DNA of 44,991 nt from the sequence record PZ379602.1. One strand, written 5' to 3'. The notes beneath the pieces were generated by a model, which saw only the letters and a list, made by a program, of their open reading frames with translations, was not told where the DNA came from and did no database searches. Shown here piece after piece: positions 11,465-44,410 of the stretch (position 1 is its first letter; every line of letters starts with the position of its first letter). The position numbers and the translations under genes are program-made. Source of the stretch: a phage.

Positions 11465-12600
11465 ATGGCAGCAGCAAAGATTACCAACGAGCAATTAATC
11501 GAAGAACTGAAAAACGGCCTTACTAACAAGGCGATTGCAGAGAAGTATGGTATGAACATTCGTAACGTTGAGATTCGTCGCAGTAAGTTGGCTAAGAGTG
11601 GCTTGTTCGGGCATGGTAACGAAGGCATTAAGAAGCTAGTACCGGACGGATACTTGGTAAAAGGCACTTCGACCATGATTGATGCGGATGGGAATGAGAA
11701 GCTGCGTTGGGTTAAGACTTCAATTGATAATGAGCGCCTTGAGATTCTGCTTGAGCAAGCACGAGAGGCATTTTGTTCTGACTTACCAAAGGCAGTTGCC
11801 AGTGAGTGCCCAGACATTGATTTTGATGATGACACGATGGCTATGTATCCGGTTTTCGACCTTCACATTGGCGCAATGGCTCATAAGCATGAGTGCGGTG
11901 AAAACTACGACACTGCAACAGCAGAGAAGGTAATGAATAGCTTCTTTGATTATGCTGTAGATAAGGCTCCTAAATCAATAAATGCGACATTAGTTTTGGG
12001 GGTGATTTTCTGCATTACGACTCTCTAGAGGCTAAAACACCAGCATCAGGACATATCTTAGACAGCGACAGTCGCTATGCTAAATTGGTTTACGTAGCAA
12101 TCCGCTCAGTGCGTCGTGCGGTTTCAAGGATGCTTGAGAAGCACCAAATCATTGATATTAAAGTAATAAGTGGAAATCACGACGAAGCTGGGATGGTTTG
12201 GTTGCGTGCAGCATTGGCGGCATTCTATGAAGACGAGGAGCGAATTACTGTCGACGTAAGCCCAGCAGCAATGCTGATGACAAGCTTCGGCTCAACATTG
12301 ATTGGTTATACTCATGGTCACCAGATGCGAAAAGCTGAAACTCGACTTACAGTAATGGCTACAGACTTTCGTAAACTATTCGGTAACAGCGAATATGTCT
12401 ATACACACTCGGGCCACTGGCATAGTCAGAAAATTACAGAAACAAACCTGGGTATCGATGAAGTTCATGGTCAGCTTGGCGCGCCAGATGCCTATTCAGC
12501 TAATGGAGGATGGCGCTCAATGCGTCAAGCAGCGGTAATCGTTTACCATAAGCGTTTTGGTGAGGTTGGTCGATTTATTTGTCGCCCTGAGATGTTCTAA
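11465..12600 (+). CDS. calcineurin-like metallophosphoesterase with N-terminal HTH domain; split by a frameshift at a G5 run
   Basis: N-terminal HTH-like NKAIAEKYGMNIRNV; motifs DLHIG, GDFLHYD (only after a +1 correction at 11998-12002) and GNHDE; two ORFs 11465..12028 and 12085..12600 in different frames. Confidence 0.6.
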
Positions 12601-13761: not shown

Positions 13762-13935
13762 ATGACTAAATTATACTGCGTTAAAAACAACTCAAAGACA
13801 CTGCCGTTCACCGAAAACCAGCCGTACAGCGCAGAGTCTCTAGGTGACGGTTACTACAAAGTTTACGGTGACGATATGACTCACATCCTTGCGCCGATTG
13901 ATGGCTCTTTGGTGGAATTTATTATCGCAGATTAA
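13762..13935 (+). CDS. hypothetical small protein (57 aa)
   Basis: ATG ORF after AGAGGA RBS, between a promoter element and a strong terminator. Confidence 0.45.
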   Translation: MTKLYCVKNNSKTLPFTENQPYSAESLGDGYYKVYGDDMTHILAPIDGSLVEFIIAD

Positions 13936-13961
13936 CACATCAAAAACATAGATTTGCATGC

Positions 13962-13988
13962 GGGGGGCCTTTTGGCTCCCCTTTTTTT
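13962..13988 (+). terminator. rho-independent terminator
   Basis: 8-bp GC stem (GGGGGGCC / GGCTCCCC with one G-U) followed by T7. Confidence 0.7.
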
Positions 13989-14062
13989 GCTTATAATTTG
14001 CCACCGCCTAATGTATGATATTTGCACTATGTATTGACAAATTAGGATTTAAAGGTGATCAC

Positions 14063-14278
14063 ATGAGGGAAGTAATTAACGCCGCCACGGCATCAACCGG
14101 CGGAGCCGCTGTAACTGGTGCCGCAACTGGTCAAATGACTATAGCAATAATCAGCCTTGTGGCTCTTGTTGTTTTCGGGCTGTGGGGAGCATATTGGAAG
14201 TTTAAGGACAGTCAGGCAATCAGGAAGGCTCTAGAGTCGGGTGATTTAAAGACAGCTATCAATATTAGGAGTAAGTAA
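14063..14278 (+). CDS. holin (single predicted transmembrane helix)
   Basis: 71 aa from ATG after AGGTGA RBS; hydrophobic stretch IAIISLVALVVFGLWGAYW; charged C-terminus; immediately upstream of the endolysin. Confidence 0.65.
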   Translation: MREVINAATASTGGAAVTGAATGQMTIAIISLVALVVFGLWGAYWKFKDSQAIRKALESGDLKTAINIRSK

Positions 14279-14763
14279 TGAAGCAGAAGCTGGTAATTAG
14301 TGCAGCGACGGCTGTGGCAATATACATCGCAGCGCCGATTATTGAGCTAGTAGAAGGTGTGGAATACAAGCCTTACATGGACATTGCAGGCATTCCTACG
14401 GTTTGTTCAGGTATCACTGGTCCTGATGTGGTGTGGGGTAAAAAGTACAGTGCAAGGGAGTGCAGGAACTTACTGGAGAAACACATCCAGATTCATGGAA
14501 AGTATGTGCAGGATGCAGTAACTTACCCAATCTCTCCACAGACAAGGGCGGCGTTAATCAGCTTTAGCTACAACGTTGGTGGCGCTGCAATGAGGAAGTC
14601 AACGGCAGTAAGGCTGATTAATCAGGGCAAGATTGAAGAGGGTTGTAATGCTCTCGCCTCCTGGAATAAAGCTCGAGTAAATGGCAAGCTAAAAGTTGTT
14701 AAAGGCCTCGTTAACAGGCGCAACGAGGAGATTAAATTATGCTTAAGTGGGGTGGGTAAATGA
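14278..14763 (+). CDS. SAR endolysin (lysozyme-like muramidase with N-terminal signal-anchor-release domain)
   Basis: Weakly hydrophobic Ala-rich N-terminus followed by an E-x8-D-x5-T catalytic arrangement (E...MDIAGIPT). Confidence 0.8.
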   Translation: MKQKLVISAATAVAIYIAAPIIELVEGVEYKPYMDIAGIPTVCSGITGPDVVWGKKYSARECRNLLEKHIQIHGKYVQDAVTYPISPQTRAALISFSYNVGGAAMRKSTAVRLINQGKIEEGCNALASWNKARVNGKLKVVKGLVNRRNEEIKLCLSGVGK

Positions 14764-15146
14764 AGGCTGCGTTAATTGCTGCGGTAATTATACTTTCTGG
14801 TTGCTCGGCAACATCTGCGCTGACCGGGTTGATTGGTAGTAAGCCAGAGATTAGCGCTCAAGCAGGTGCGGAGAATAACAAGGTTGGAGTAGGGCTAACT
14901 AATAAGGTTGATTCAAGTTCCAGCGCAAAGGCTGAAGTGAAGAACTCTAAGGTTGACACTCTTGATAGTTCAAGCGGTAAAAAGACTTCTGATAACTCAA
15001 TCAAGGCATCAACAATCACGGCTGAGAAGATTGAAATCACCAACAATGATTCGTCTGCAATCCCGTGGATTGGGAGTGGAATCATGTTTTGCGTCATCAT
15101 CATTCTGCTCTTAATGATATTCAGGAAAAACAAAAAAGCCCCGTAA
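14760..15146 (+). CDS. unimolecular spanin (lipoprotein with C-terminal transmembrane domain)
   Basis: Lipobox ILSGC at the N-terminus and a C-terminal TMD (IMFCVIIILLLMIF); start overlaps the endolysin stop. Confidence 0.8.
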   Translation: MKAALIAAVIILSGCSATSALTGLIGSKPEISAQAGAENNKVGVGLTNKVDSSSSAKAEVKNSKVDTLDSSSGKKTSDNSIKASTITAEKIEITNNDSSAIPWIGSGIMFCVIIILLLMIFRKNKKAP

Positions 15147-15160
15147 TGGGGCTATTTTTA
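15137..15160. terminator. bidirectional rho-independent terminator
   Basis: Hairpin GCCCC-gtaat-GGGGC flanked by an A run upstream and a T run downstream; spanin stop lies in the loop. Confidence 0.65.
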
Positions 15161-15493
15161 TGCAAACAATTCGTCATCACTCATGTTGGCTATGTTCATC
15201 ATCTCACTGACGTAATCACTGGACCTACCTTCAAGGCTCATGAATTCAAACTGAAATGGTCGCTTAATTGAACCCTTACACCAGTACACTCCATTAACTC
15301 CATCAAGATACCCAGCCGTAAGCATTCTCGCCATAAACTCCTTCGAGCAACTTGAGGCAAAATACCTTTCATCAACCCCGGCAGCCTTGGCCATCCTTGC
15401 GCAATCCTTGTGCTTATAGATGAATCTTGCCAGGTGCTGGCGGTTGAAGTTCTTGTATCCTTCGCAGAAATTATACAGGTCGAGCAGGTACAT
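15158..15493 (-). CDS. hypothetical protein (111 aa)
   Basis: Minus-strand ORF tightly following the 527-aa gene. Confidence 0.5.
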   Translation of the reverse strand: MYLLDLYNFCEGYKNFNRQHLARFIYKHKDCARMAKAAGVDERYFASSCSKEFMARMLTAGYLDGVNGVYWCKGSIKRPFQFEFMSLEGRSSDYVSEMMNIANMSDDELFA

Positions 15494-23199: not shown

Positions 23200-23275
23200 G
23201 TTCTGCTGGCGTAACAGGATAACGCAAAGACCTCCTAAGTCTTAGTTACTGGTTCGAGTCCAGTGCGGAACACCA
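23200..23275 (+). tRNA. tRNA-Arg (anticodon CCU, reads AGG), CCA encoded
   Basis: Manual fold: acceptor GTTCTGC/GCGGAAC (one G-U), D stem GCGT/ACGC, anticodon stem AAGAC/GTCTT with loop CTCCTAA, T arm ACTGG-TTCGAGT-CCAGT, discriminator A, CCA. Confidence 0.85.
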
Positions 23276-43900: not shown

Positions 43901-44410
43901 GAGAAGTTGGACACTTACGTTACTGCCGATTCAATTGGTGCTCAGTACGGGATTAAACTTGGCCTCAAATACAATGGCGTTGAGTACAGTTCTGGCATGA
44001 GTATGGAGCTAACTGGTTCTGATGGCAATGTTCGTAGTCAGGTCATCTTTGATGCTAACAGGTTAGCAATCAGTAACGGCATTAGCTCTGGATCCGGTCA
44101 GTGGTCATTGCCTTTCGTAGTTGAAGGTAATCAGGTATTCATTCAAAGCGCAGTGATTCAGGATGGTTCAATCACTAACGCGAAGATTGGTAACCGGATT
44201 CAATCTAATAACTACGTGGCTGGTTCTCAGGGTTGGGCCATTGATAAGTCAGGCAGTGCGGAACTTAACAATGCAACTGTAAGGGGTAGTCTGTACGCAA
44301 GTAACGGCAACTTTGCGTTTAACGGAACCAACAACACTGTTCAGATTAACAATAATGGAATTACAGTTAATTTACCGAATGGTGGAAGGGTTGTAGTTGG
44401 AGTGTGGTAA
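40985..44410 (+). CDS. tail tip / host specificity protein (lambda J-like)
   Basis: 1141 aa; N-terminus GSKGGQPKQHQPVEQPDNLISV... follows the J-type pattern; position after the I-like gene. Confidence 0.85.
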   Translation: MAQMVKTNAELCDMAEEIKIYGSKGGQPKQHQPVEQPDNLISVNKVKVLLAVSDGEVDSSFSLKDLYLADVPVQNQNGTYNYEGVTAEFRPGTQSQDYIAGLEGANSEVQVNREIKNSTPYIIAVNNTQLSAIRVKLFWPRLINQESNGDLNGTTCEYAIDLSVDGATYTEYTRGVANGKTTSGYDRSIRVNLPAEFSSALVRVRKITADSESSTLVNDMQITTYQEVIDAKFRYPLTALVYVEFSSDLFPNGIPTISIKKKWKLIRVPTNYNPETRTYSGTWNGTFKMAYSNNPAWVLYDLVTNQRYGLDQRELGITIDKWGLYEAAQFCDQMVPDGKGGVEPRYLCDVVIQQKVEAYQVIRDICSIFRGLTFYDGEQIGIVVDKPRQPSYVFTNDNVVDGLFNRTFGSDKSLYTVANVQFDDVENSYQQDVEPVFELEATRRFGYNPVDLTAIGCTRRSEANRRGRWLLKTNIRSETISFTTGLEGMIPMIGEVIAVNDQAWSSNYTLNLSGRIESVSGLQVFVPFKIDATAGDRILINKPDGMPEYRTIASVSEDGMTLQLNTAFSFTPQPDTVFAIDKENLALQQYVVTGIQKADSDGDDAFGYTITAVEYDPNKYDEIDYGVNIQDRPTSIVEPDTLLAPENVQVSSYSKVVQGLSVETMVITWDKVQYAKTYTVQWRKENGNWINVPRTASTEVDIEGIYAGIYQVRVRAVSDTENVSAWSDIVSVSLTGKIGTPSSPTVITASDDEIFGIRVKWGFPENSADTSYTELQQVADNGDGTYTPENASLLTLVPYPSYEYWHTTLPAGKVIWYRARLIDKIGNVSPWTDFVRGMASDDVSSIIGDIKVDIENSDGFKYLQQNAIESNGAIQAQAESIIENALANDGDVRRMTKENGKRKAEFVQAVNLIADEERARVEALTQLKAQIDDEIVASLTRIDTALAEETQARTTADTALSARLGDNEAALNEKLDTYVTADSIGAQYGIKLGLKYNGVEYSSGMSMELTGSDGNVRSQVIFDANRLAISNGISSGSGQWSLPFVVEGNQVFIQSAVIQDGSITNAKIGNRIQSNNYVAGSQGWAIDKSGSAELNNATVRGSLYASNGNFAFNGTNNTVQINNNGITVNLPNGGRVVVGVW

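What the first reader, a model, noticed from the sequence alone, without database searches (positions are those of the whole stretch)
14063..15146. Lysis cassette with SAR endolysin and a unimolecular spanin
The endolysin has a weakly hydrophobic N-terminal signal-anchor-release segment, and the third gene encodes one protein with both an N-terminal lipobox (LSGC) and a C-terminal transmembrane helix. That is a single-component spanin rather than the usual two-protein pair. The cassette is bracketed by strong terminators.
Basis: partly seen in the sequence, partly recalled or inferred. Interest (0 to 1): 0.4.

Follow-up and report, generated by a model that had tools for sequence, protein, structure and literature searches.

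The report
T1-type phage lysis cassette
This is the ordinary three-gene cell-bursting module of a T1-like E. coli phage (holin, membrane-tethered lysozyme, single-protein spanin); it is correctly read, but the same protein is already in GenBank and its phage T1 homologue has been tested experimentally.

Summary
Window 14063-15146 holds three translationally coupled genes:
- a 71-aa holin;
- a 161-aa GH24 lysozyme with an uncharged, Ala/Ser/Thr-rich N-terminal anchor (SAR type);
- a 128-aa protein with the lipobox LSGC (Cys15) and a C-terminal transmembrane helix (about residues 101-121).

GC-rich hairpins followed by T-runs flank the cassette.

The interpretation also holds, but it is not new. 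The three proteins are homologues of phage T1 gp13, gp12 and gp11, in the same gene order. T1 gp11 is the founding unimolecular spanin and complements a lambda RzRz1 defect (PMC6139136). It has the same LSGC lipobox.

The window comes from a Drexlerviridae (Braunvirinae) coliphage. Two GenBank phages carry this cassette at 99.9% DNA identity, and one of them (AN_ECEAS) encodes an identical third protein. Close relatives annotate that gene as "u-spanin".

All 120 listed homologues keep a lipobox, a C-terminal hydrophobic helix and a Cys-free periplasmic region. No second lipoprotein ORF or i-spanin candidate exists.

The one feature I could not confirm is the beta-strand-rich periplasmic domain, because the AlphaFold2 model was low-confidence there.

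Verdict: real, correctly interpreted, already known, low interest.

The parts
13762..13935 (+). Small DUF7244 / SH3-like protein (57 aa), homologue of T1 gp14. It neighbours the cassette and has been proposed elsewhere as an accessory lysis-module gene.
   Evidence: Pfam PF23896 E 4.7e-28; 40% identity to T1 gp14; PMC13164509.
13962..13988 (+). Upstream intrinsic-terminator-like hairpin: an 8-bp stem with 7 G-C pairs, followed by T7.
   Evidence: Folds at -19.1 kcal/mol, and 0 of 200 shuffles fold as well. A hairpin plus T-run is present at the same place in 4 relatives.
14063..14278 (+). Holin, 71 aa, T1 gp13 type. It has one strong transmembrane helix (residues 25-45, nt 14135-14197) preceded by a Gly/Ala/Thr-rich segment (residues 4-23). 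The literature predicts a pinholin.
   Evidence: PHROG 2877 'holin' E 5.9e-37; 54% identity to T1 gp13; hydropathy; strong SD AAAGGTGAT; T1/TLS holins proposed as class II pinholins (PMC11447400).
14278..14763 (+). SAR endolysin, 161 aa, GH24 lysozyme. The SAR segment is residues 5-22 (nt 14290-14343). The catalytic triad is Glu26, Asp35 and Thr41 (nt 14353-14400). There is no Cys in the SAR segment, so it is the R21 type.
   Evidence: PF00959 E 4.3e-35; best PDB matches RrrD 4zpu and R21 3hde/3hdf; 48% identity to T1 gp12; hydropathy and composition; E23, E26, D35 and T41 invariant in alignment A2.
14760..15146 (+). Unimolecular spanin, 128 aa, T1 gp11 family. Signal peptide with lipobox LSGC (nt 14793-14804, Cys15); Cys-free periplasmic domain (residues 16-100); C-terminal transmembrane helix (about residues 101-121, nt 15060-15122); basic tail RKNKKAP.
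   Evidence: PHROG 1804 E 1.9e-46; 38% identity and E 3e-24 to T1 gp11; alignment A1; 120 of 120 homologues keep the three features; AF2 helix 103-123; 100% identical product in AN_ECEAS.
15137..15153 (.). Bidirectional terminator-like hairpin overlapping the spanin stop codon, with a T-run on each strand. It separates the rightward cassette from the leftward genes.
   Evidence: Folds at -12.2 (+ strand) and -14.4 (- strand) kcal/mol, and 0 of 200 shuffles fold as well. T1 has an annotated terminator at the equivalent place, 43966-43988.

Best explanation
This is the late lysis cassette of a T1-like (Drexlerviridae, Braunvirinae) coliphage. It is orthologous to T1 genes 13, 12 and 11.

The mechanism below is inferred from the T1, phage 21 and lambda paradigms. 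None of its steps was shown for this phage.

1. The 71-aa holin accumulates in the inner membrane. At a set time it triggers, forms small holes and collapses the membrane potential.
2. Meanwhile the endolysin has been exported by Sec. It sits inactive, tethered by its uncleaved, weakly hydrophobic N-terminal SAR segment, with the catalytic Glu26 only three residues from the membrane.
3. Depolarisation lets the SAR segment leave the bilayer. The enzyme refolds and cuts the peptidoglycan.
4. The third protein is lipidated at Cys15 and sorted to the outer membrane (Ser at +2), while its C-terminal helix stays in the inner membrane. One polypeptide therefore spans the periplasm, threaded through the wall.
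5. Once the wall is removed, the spanin molecules can diffuse, oligomerise and collapse. This fuses the inner and outer membranes and releases the progeny.

The three genes are translationally coupled. They lie between a terminator upstream and a bidirectional terminator downstream.
For: Shown here:
- The three ORFs, their start/stop overlaps and their ribosome-binding sites.
- Family matches: PHROG holin E 6e-37, endolysin E 1e-49 and Rz-like spanin E 2e-46; Pfam Phage_lysozyme E 4e-35.
- Pairwise homology to T1 gp13, gp12, gp11 and gp14 of 54%, 48%, 38% and 40%, with identical gene order and a terminator after the spanin gene.
- The closest solved structures to the endolysin are the SAR endolysins R21 and RrrD, and the E-8-D-5-T triad aligns with them.
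- Lipobox, C-terminal helix and absence of periplasmic Cys are conserved in 120 of 120 homologues and across siphophage and podophage members.
- No alternative spanin ORFs exist.
- Relatives annotate the gene as u-spanin or unimolecular spanin.

From the literature:
- T1 gp11 complements lambda RzRz1. Its LSGC lipobox is functional. The family is associated with a pinholin plus a SAR endolysin (PMC6139136).
- The same module is described for T1, KanT1 and TLS (PMC13164509; PMC11447400).
Against: - Nothing was tested functionally for this phage.
- AlphaFold2 gave no beta strands in the periplasmic domain. pLDDT was below 50 over residues 16-96, so the beta-rich signature of the family is unconfirmed.
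- Direct identity to T1 gp11 is 37-38%, just under the 40% family cut-off of Kongari et al. The link is through intermediates: 51% to PaulSarasin, which is 42% to T1.
- No sigma-70-like promoter was detected between the upstream terminator and the holin start. How the cassette is transcribed, by read-through or from an unrecognised promoter, is open.
- The pinholin status of the holin rests on a weakly hydrophobic first segment (KD 0.84) and on literature proposals.
Confidence: 0.93

Rival explanations
1. The third gene encodes an ordinary phage lipoprotein, for example a Cor/Llp-like superinfection-exclusion or receptor-blocking protein, that happens to have a hydrophobic C-terminus. Outer-membrane disruption is done by something else.
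For: Lipoproteins with non-lysis roles exist in T1-like phages; T1 Cor is annotated. Two near-identical GenBank records call this gene only 'hypothetical protein'. Other records call homologues 'lipoprotein'.
Against: Homology runs over the full length to T1 gp11, which was shown to replace Rz/Rz1 (PMC6139136). The gene is the last one of the lysis cassette and is translationally coupled to the endolysin gene. The dual-anchor topology is invariant in 120 of 120 homologues. No other spanin candidate is present in the cassette.
Confidence: 0.03
2. The endolysin's N-terminal segment is a cleavable Sec signal peptide or a permanent signal anchor, not a releasable SAR domain. Wall degradation would then not be gated by membrane depolarisation.
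For: The segment is moderately hydrophobic on the Kyte-Doolittle scale (1.98) and more so than T1 gp12's (1.13). No dedicated predictor (SignalP, TMHMM) was available.
Against: It is 42% Gly/Ala/Ser/Thr with a positive summed Hessa scale of +3.4, against negative values for the two true transmembrane helices. By my inspection there is no usable AXA cleavage site: AVA at 12-14 leaves too short an h-region, and IAA at 17-19 is followed by Pro. The closest solved relatives are the SAR endolysins R21 and RrrD. T1-family spanins are reported to travel with SAR endolysins (PMC6139136).
Confidence: 0.05
3. A conventional two-component spanin is hidden in the region, embedded, overlapped or separated, and the third gene is only its o-spanin half.
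For: Embedded o-spanin genes are often missed by annotators.
Against: A six-frame scan of 14000-15300 finds a single lipobox preceded by a signal peptide, the one in the third gene. The other motif hits lack a start codon, a signal peptide or conservation. The third protein itself carries the inner-membrane anchor. The next gene downstream is on the opposite strand beyond a bidirectional terminator. The same holds in 5 relatives.
Confidence: 0.01

Closest known systems
Phage T1 lysis cassette: gp13 holin, gp12 SAR endolysin, gp11 u-spanin (NC_005833, 42878-43982)
   Same: - Same three genes in the same order, with nearly the same lengths (71/161/128 aa against 71/162/133 aa).
- Same LSGC lipobox, C-terminal transmembrane helix and Cys-free periplasmic domain.
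- Same E-8-D-5-T lysozyme triad.
- Same small DUF7244 gene upstream, and a terminator and leftward helicase-side genes downstream.
   Different: - Sequence identity is only 54%, 48% and 38%.
- T1 has an HNH endonuclease gene between the exonuclease and gp14, where this window has a kinase-like and a HAD-like gene.
- The SAR segment here is more hydrophobic than T1's (KD 1.98 against 1.13).
- The periplasmic domain here is very Ser/Lys/Asn-rich.
Lysis cassettes of Braunvirinae coliphages ES (OR466728), AN_ECEAS (PP944860), TR1, TR2 and phiA2-1
   Same: ES and AN_ECEAS have 99.9% DNA identity over 13900-15250, and the u-spanin protein is 100% identical in AN_ECEAS. TR1, TR2, TR3 and phiA2-1 are 84-87% identical and annotate holin, lysozyme and u-spanin.
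   Different: The rest of the window is only about 90-92% identical to ES and AN_ECEAS, over 78-90% of its length. The cassette is therefore a nearly identical block in a mosaic relative. ES and AN_ECEAS leave the third gene as 'hypothetical protein', and AN_ECEAS calls the holin 16 codons too long.
Phage 21 S21 68 / R21 pinholin and SAR endolysin system
   Same: The endolysin is a GH24 lysozyme whose closest solved structures are R21 and RrrD. It has an N-terminal Gly/Ala/Ser/Thr-rich anchor without Cys, so regulation is expected to be of the R21 type and not P1 Lyz disulfide caging.
   Different: Phage 21 uses a two-component Rz/Rz1 spanin (from my own knowledge, not checked here). From memory of the R21 sequence, its SAR-to-Glu spacer is about 9 residues, against 3 here. 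The holin here is unrelated in sequence to any Pfam holin family, and its first segment is much less hydrophobic.
Lambda Rz/Rz1 two-component spanin
   Same: Same inferred job (disrupting the outer membrane by inner-outer membrane fusion after wall removal), the same position at the end of the lysis cassette and the same outer-membrane lipoprotein anchor. T1 gp11 complements an RzRz1 defect (PMC6139136).
   Different: One polypeptide instead of two. There are no coiled coils and no periplasmic cysteines or disulfide-linked dimers. There is no detectable sequence similarity: only a sub-threshold NCBIfam 'spanin2' hit over the signal-peptide region (19 bits against a cut-off of 80).

Membership tests
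T1 gp11-type unimolecular spanin | N-terminal lipoprotein signal peptide with a lipobox and an invariant Cys | tested here: met
   The protein begins MKAALIAAVIILSGC, which fits [LVI][ASTVI][GAS]C. The lipobox is identical to T1 gp11's LSGC (PMC6139136). Cys15 is invariant in A1, and 120 of 120 homologues have a lipobox. No LipoP or SignalP run was possible.
T1 gp11-type unimolecular spanin | Outer-membrane sorting: the residue after the lipidated Cys is not Asp | tested here: met
   Ser16 is invariant in A1, and Ser is at +2 in 119 of 120 homologues. The sorting rule itself is from established knowledge of the Lol pathway.
T1 gp11-type unimolecular spanin | Single C-terminal transmembrane helix followed by a short basic cytoplasmic tail | tested here: met
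   Residues 103-121 have KD 2.74 and a Hessa sum of -3.9, followed by RKNKKAP. AF2 models a helix at 103-123, with a mean pLDDT of 86 for the 10-residue block at 111-120. All 120 homologues have this feature.
T1 gp11-type unimolecular spanin | No cysteine in the periplasmic domain | tested here: met
   Cys occurs only at position 15 (lipobox) and position 111 (inside the helix). None of 120 homologues has a periplasmic Cys.
T1 gp11-type unimolecular spanin | Periplasmic domain with a short helix followed by four or more beta strands | tested here: inconclusive
   AF2 with 42 sequences gives a short helix at 18-24 but no strands. pLDDT is below 50 over residues 16-96, and mean pLDDT is 53. The alignment was shallow (at least 68% identity) and only a monomer was modelled.
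T1 gp11-type unimolecular spanin | Sequence relationship to T1 gp11 (Kongari et al. clustered at 40% identity over 40% of length) | tested here: met
   BLASTP gives 38% identity over 118 aa, E 3e-24, just under 40% directly. It is linked through PaulSarasin: 51% to the window and 42% to T1. PHROG 1804 matches at E 1.9e-46.
T1 gp11-type unimolecular spanin | Last gene of the lysis cassette, next to the endolysin gene | tested here: met
   Its start overlaps the endolysin stop (ATGA), and a bidirectional terminator follows. T1, PaulSarasin, SP-126 and ISF001 have the same layout.
T1 gp11-type unimolecular spanin | Functionally replaces a two-component spanin and is needed for outer-membrane disruption | not testable with these tools
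   Shown only for T1 gp11 (PMC6139136).
SAR endolysin, R21 type | Muralytic catalytic domain with an intact active site | tested here: met
   PF00959 matches at E 4.3e-35. Glu26, Asp35 and Thr41 (E-8aa-D-5aa-T) align with R21 and RrrD and are invariant in A2.
SAR endolysin, R21 type | N-terminal uncharged segment enriched in weakly hydrophobic residues (Gly/Ala/Ser/Thr), with basic residues before it | tested here: met
   The sequence is MKQK followed by LVISAATAVAIYIAAPII. It is 42% Gly/Ala/Ser/Thr with a Hessa sum of +3.4, against -1.3 and -3.9 for the two true helices. The relatives' segments vary in sequence but have the same character.
SAR endolysin, R21 type | Segment is not cleaved by signal peptidase, and leaves the membrane on depolarisation | not testable with these tools
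   Only manual inspection was possible. It shows no plausible AXA site with an adequate h-region, and Pro20 follows IAA.
SAR endolysin, P1 Lyz type (disulfide caging) | Cysteine inside the SAR segment that isomerises with a caged catalytic Cys | tested here: not met
   The Cys residues are at 43, 62, 123 and 155 only, with none in residues 1-25. The catalytic position holds Asp35, not Cys.
Pinholin (class II, S21 68-like topology) | Two transmembrane segments, the first weakly hydrophobic and able to exit the membrane | tested here: inconclusive
   There is one clear helix at 25-45 (KD 2.34). Residues 4-23 (VINAATASTGGAAVTGAATG) reach only KD 0.84. T1 and TLS holins are proposed as class II pinholins in PMC11447400 and PMC6139136. 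The T1 GenBank note says 'single transmembrane domain'.
Two-component spanin (Rz/Rz1) | Separate i-spanin (N-terminal transmembrane helix plus coiled coil) and o-spanin (small lipoprotein) genes | tested here: not met
   No second credible lipobox ORF was found by the six-frame motif scan of 14000-15300. No ORF with the look of an i-spanin appears in the ORF list around the cassette; no transmembrane or coiled-coil predictor was run.

The most novel reading that the evidence does not exclude
The most novel reading left open concerns how the spanin works, not what it is. The Braunvirinae version has a periplasmic domain that is 20% Ser and rich in Lys, Asn and Thr, and AlphaFold2 models it as unstructured. 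It might therefore act as a disordered tether that only forms intermolecular beta sheets after the wall is removed.

A related possibility is that the adjacent signal-less SH3-like DUF7244 gene, cut off from the cassette by a terminator, is a genuine fourth lysis factor. In that case it would have to reach the wall through what is predicted to be a pinholin.

Neither idea is supported by positive evidence here.
Probability: 0.08. Interest if true: 0.4.

Novelty: already known. Interest (0 to 1): 0.08.

Why it matters
It matters little beyond correct annotation. The pinholin, SAR endolysin and u-spanin cassette is the standard lysis module of T1-like phages. The same third protein is already public, and its T1 homologue has been tested genetically.

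Two practical points follow:
- The third gene of phages ES and AN_ECEAS, deposited as 'hypothetical protein', should be annotated as a u-spanin.
- The AN_ECEAS holin start should move 48 nt downstream.

How u-spanins fuse membranes without coiled coils or disulfides is still open. This sequence offers no special handle on that question.

Tried and rejected
- AlphaFold2 of the spanin, using 42 homologues at 68% identity or more, was meant to test the beta-rich periplasmic signature. The model was low-confidence (mean pLDDT 53) and showed no strands, so it is uninformative rather than negative.
- A search of the spanin against PDB sequences gave no meaningful hit; the best E-value was 0.27.
- NCBIfam gave nothing for the holin, and only a sub-threshold 'spanin2' hit over the signal peptide of the third protein. 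Pfam has no family for the holin or the spanin.
- The 25-aa TTG ORF at 14157-14234 (MWLLLFSGC...) inside the holin gene was considered as a hidden lipoprotein. I rejected it: it has no basic n-region and is not conserved even in phiA2-1.
- The in-frame upstream ATG at 14015, used in the AN_ECEAS record, was considered as a dual-start or antiholin form. I rejected it: it has no SD, and in phiA2-1 the ATG is ATT and the frame carries a TAA.
- I looked for a sigma-70 promoter between the upstream terminator and the holin start. None passed the scan. The conserved TTGACA at 14035-14040 lies too close to the start codon to serve as a -35 element for this gene.
- The J Virol 2018 paper on T1 gp11 localisation (PMC6206483) is not held in the library. 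Its content is cited only through reviews.
Full report
**What is there**

The region 14063-15146 contains three rightward ORFs that abut or overlap:
- 14063-14278, 71 aa;
- 14278-14763, 161 aa;
- 14760-15146, 128 aa.

The first stop and second start share a base (TAATG). The second stop and third start overlap by four bases (ATGA). The first two starts are preceded by purine-rich Shine-Dalgarno-like sequences (AAAGGTGAT, AGGAG); the stretch before the third (GGGTGGG) is a weaker match.

**Gene 1, the holin**

- It matches PHROG 2877 'holin' over its full length (E 5.9e-37) and is 54% identical to T1 gp13. No Pfam or NCBIfam family matches.
- It has one clearly hydrophobic helix at residues 25-45 (KD 2.34).
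- A Gly/Ala/Thr/Ser-rich stretch at residues 4-23 precedes it, with KD only 0.84.
- The literature treats the T1 and TLS homologues as two-segment class II pinholins (PMC11447400; PMC6139136). I could not confirm or refute that topology.
- GenBank record AN_ECEAS starts this gene 48 nt upstream, at the position matching window 14015. That ATG has no SD. In phiA2-1 it is ATT and the frame contains a stop, so 14063 is the real start.

**Gene 2, the endolysin**

- It matches Pfam Phage_lysozyme (GH24) at E 4.3e-35.
- Its best solved relatives are RrrD (4zpu) and the phage 21 SAR endolysin R21 (3hde, 3hdf), at E about 1e-27. In those alignments Glu26, Asp35 and Thr41 sit on the catalytic E-8-D-5-T triad. 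The three residues are invariant among six Drexlerviridae homologues.
- The N-terminus is MKQK followed by LVISAATAVAIYIAAPII and then Glu23. This stretch is 18 uncharged residues and 42% Gly/Ala/Ser/Thr.
- On the Hessa scale (values entered from memory) the best 19-residue window sums to +3.4. The holin helix gives -1.3 and the spanin helix -3.9. 'Weakly hydrophobic' is therefore a fair description.
- By inspection there is no usable signal-peptidase site.
- The segment has no Cys. Regulation should therefore be of the R21 kind and not the P1 Lyz disulfide-caging kind.
- It is 48% identical to T1 gp12.

**Gene 3, the spanin**

- The protein begins MKAALIAAVIILSGC-S and ends IPWIGSGIMFCVIIILLLMIF-RKNKKAP.
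- It matches PHROG 1804 'Rz-like spanin' at E 1.9e-46.
- It aligns with T1 gp11 from the lipobox to the basic tail: 38% identity, E 3e-24. T1 gp11 has the same LSGC lipobox.
- Kongari et al. (PMC6139136) define the unimolecular spanin by these properties: an outer-membrane lipoprotein signal, a C-terminal transmembrane domain, last position in the lysis cassette, a Cys-free and beta-rich periplasmic domain, and, for the T1 family, partnership with a pinholin and a SAR endolysin. They report that gene 11 complements the lambda RzRz1 defect.

I tested these features one by one.
- Lipobox and Cys15: present, and invariant in an 11-sequence alignment that includes T1, TLS-like, Klebsiella, Erwinia and Dickeya phage members.
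- Ser at +2: present.
- C-terminal helix: present by hydropathy and in the AlphaFold2 model (helix 103-123).
- Periplasmic Cys: none.
- Across the 120 listed database homologues, 120 have a lipobox, 120 have a C-terminal hydrophobic 19-mer and none has a periplasmic Cys.
- The 40% identity criterion is met by linkage through PaulSarasin (51% to the window, 42% to T1) but not directly.
- The beta-rich signature could not be confirmed. The AF2 model has a short helix at 18-24, as described for the family. The rest of the periplasmic domain is coil with pLDDT below 50.

**No hidden two-component spanin**

A six-frame scan of 14000-15300 for lipobox-like motifs finds one with a proper signal peptide, the third gene's own. 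The only other + strand hit is a 25-aa TTG ORF within the holin gene. It lacks a basic n-region and is absent from every relative examined. The next gene downstream is on the opposite strand.

**Terminators**

- The hairpin at 13962-13981 has 8 bp, 7 of them G-C, and is followed by T7. It folds at -19.1 kcal/mol.
- The hairpin at 15137-15153 overlaps the spanin stop codon and has T-runs on both strands. It folds at -12.2 and -14.4 kcal/mol.
- In each case none of 200 dinucleotide shuffles folds as well.
- Relatives from three subfamilies have a hairpin plus T-run at the same upstream position with different stem sequences.
- T1 has an annotated terminator at the equivalent downstream position.
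- 'Bracketed by strong terminators' is therefore confirmed.
- No sigma-70-like promoter was found between the upstream terminator and the holin start, so how the cassette is transcribed is not settled.

**Where the window comes from**

- The cassette is 99.9% identical in DNA to Escherichia phages ES and AN_ECEAS (Drexlerviridae, Braunvirinae). The spanin protein is 100% identical to that of AN_ECEAS.
- TR1, TR2, TR3 and phiA2-1 are 84-87% identical and annotate 'holin / lysozyme / u-spanin'.
- The rest of the window is only about 90-92% identical to ES and AN_ECEAS over 78-90% of its length. Identity falls off on both sides of the cassette. The phage is therefore a mosaic relative sharing a nearly identical lysis block.
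- tblastn finds spanin homologues in 1175 phage records.
- A 2026 survey found the exonuclease-holin-endolysin-spanin module in 508 of 522 Drexlerviridae genomes (PMC13164509).
- Gene order around the cassette matches T1. A DUF7244/SH3-like gene (the gp14 homologue) lies upstream, and a bidirectional terminator, a small leftward gene and a helicase-like gene lie downstream.

**Mechanism (inferred by homology, not shown here)**

1. The holin triggers and depolarises the inner membrane.
2. The SAR segment of the pre-exported, membrane-tethered lysozyme leaves the bilayer, and the enzyme becomes active.
3. The peptidoglycan is degraded.
4. The spanin is lipid-anchored in the outer membrane and helix-anchored in the inner membrane. 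It is no longer held apart by the wall meshwork, so it oligomerises and collapses, fusing the two membranes.

How u-spanins do this without coiled coils or disulfides remains unknown (PMC6139136; PMC7830690; PMC9636201).

**Verdict**

The feature is already known: it is the standard T1-type lysis cassette, and the same third protein is already in GenBank. Interest is low. The only practical outputs are the annotation corrections for phages ES and AN_ECEAS.

Noticed in passing
window 11465-12600 (G-run at 11998-12002): The DNA-repair exonuclease gene (T1 gp16 homologue) is split into two ORFs: 11465-12028 (187 aa) and 12085-12600 (171 aa). They match the N- and C-terminal halves of the intact 377-aa AN_ECEAS protein at 69% and 67% identity. 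The frame changes at a run of five G; one more G would restore ...LVLGGDFLHYDS.... This could be a sequencing error, a pseudogene or a real frameshift. No near-identical relative exists to decide (best match 78.6%).
   Followed up: partly
window 13762-13935: A 57-aa DUF7244 / SH3-like protein (T1 gp14 homologue) lies just upstream of the cassette. It was recently proposed as an accessory lysis-module component (PMC13164509). It has no obvious N-terminal hydrophobic or signal segment by inspection of its sequence, and the strong terminator at 13962-13988 separates it from the holin gene. Both points sit awkwardly with a periplasmic wall-binding role alongside a predicted pinholin.
   Followed up: partly
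window about 13870-15310 against its flanks: Mosaicism. The lysis block differs from phage AN_ECEAS at only two positions (13981 and 15050). The DNA on either side is much more divergent, about 70-94% identical. This suggests recent exchange of the lysis module between Braunvirinae phages.
   Followed up: partly
window 14015-14062: GenBank AN_ECEAS annotates the holin from an upstream in-frame ATG, giving 87 aa. That start lacks an SD and is not conserved: in phiA2-1 it is ATT and an in-frame TAA follows. The start at 14063 (71 aa, as in T1) is the real one.
   Followed up: yes
window 14035-14040: A perfect TTGACA lies 22 nt upstream of the holin ATG and is kept (as ATTGACA) in 4 of 5 Drexlerviridae compared. 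It is too close to the start codon to be a normal -35 element for this gene. Its function is unknown.
   Followed up: no
window 23200-23275: ARAGORN predicts a tRNA-Arg (anticodon CCT) gene on the + strand.
   Followed up: no
loci L005, L006, L007 (Klebsiella RCIP0104, Erwinia Loshitsa2, Dickeya BF25/12): The same u-spanin family occurs in podophages (two of the three records are classified Autographiviridae; the Klebsiella record carries no family), at 34-48% identity. The gene order there differs. In the Erwinia and Dickeya phages it is spanin, then holin, then endolysin; in the Klebsiella record the downstream genes are unannotated. Klebsiella phages make up 628 of the 1175 phage records with a homologue.
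   Followed up: partly
window 14157-14234: A 25-aa TTG ORF in the +1 frame of the holin gene begins MWLLLFSGC, which looks like a lipobox. It is not conserved in any relative and is judged to be chance.
   Followed up: yes
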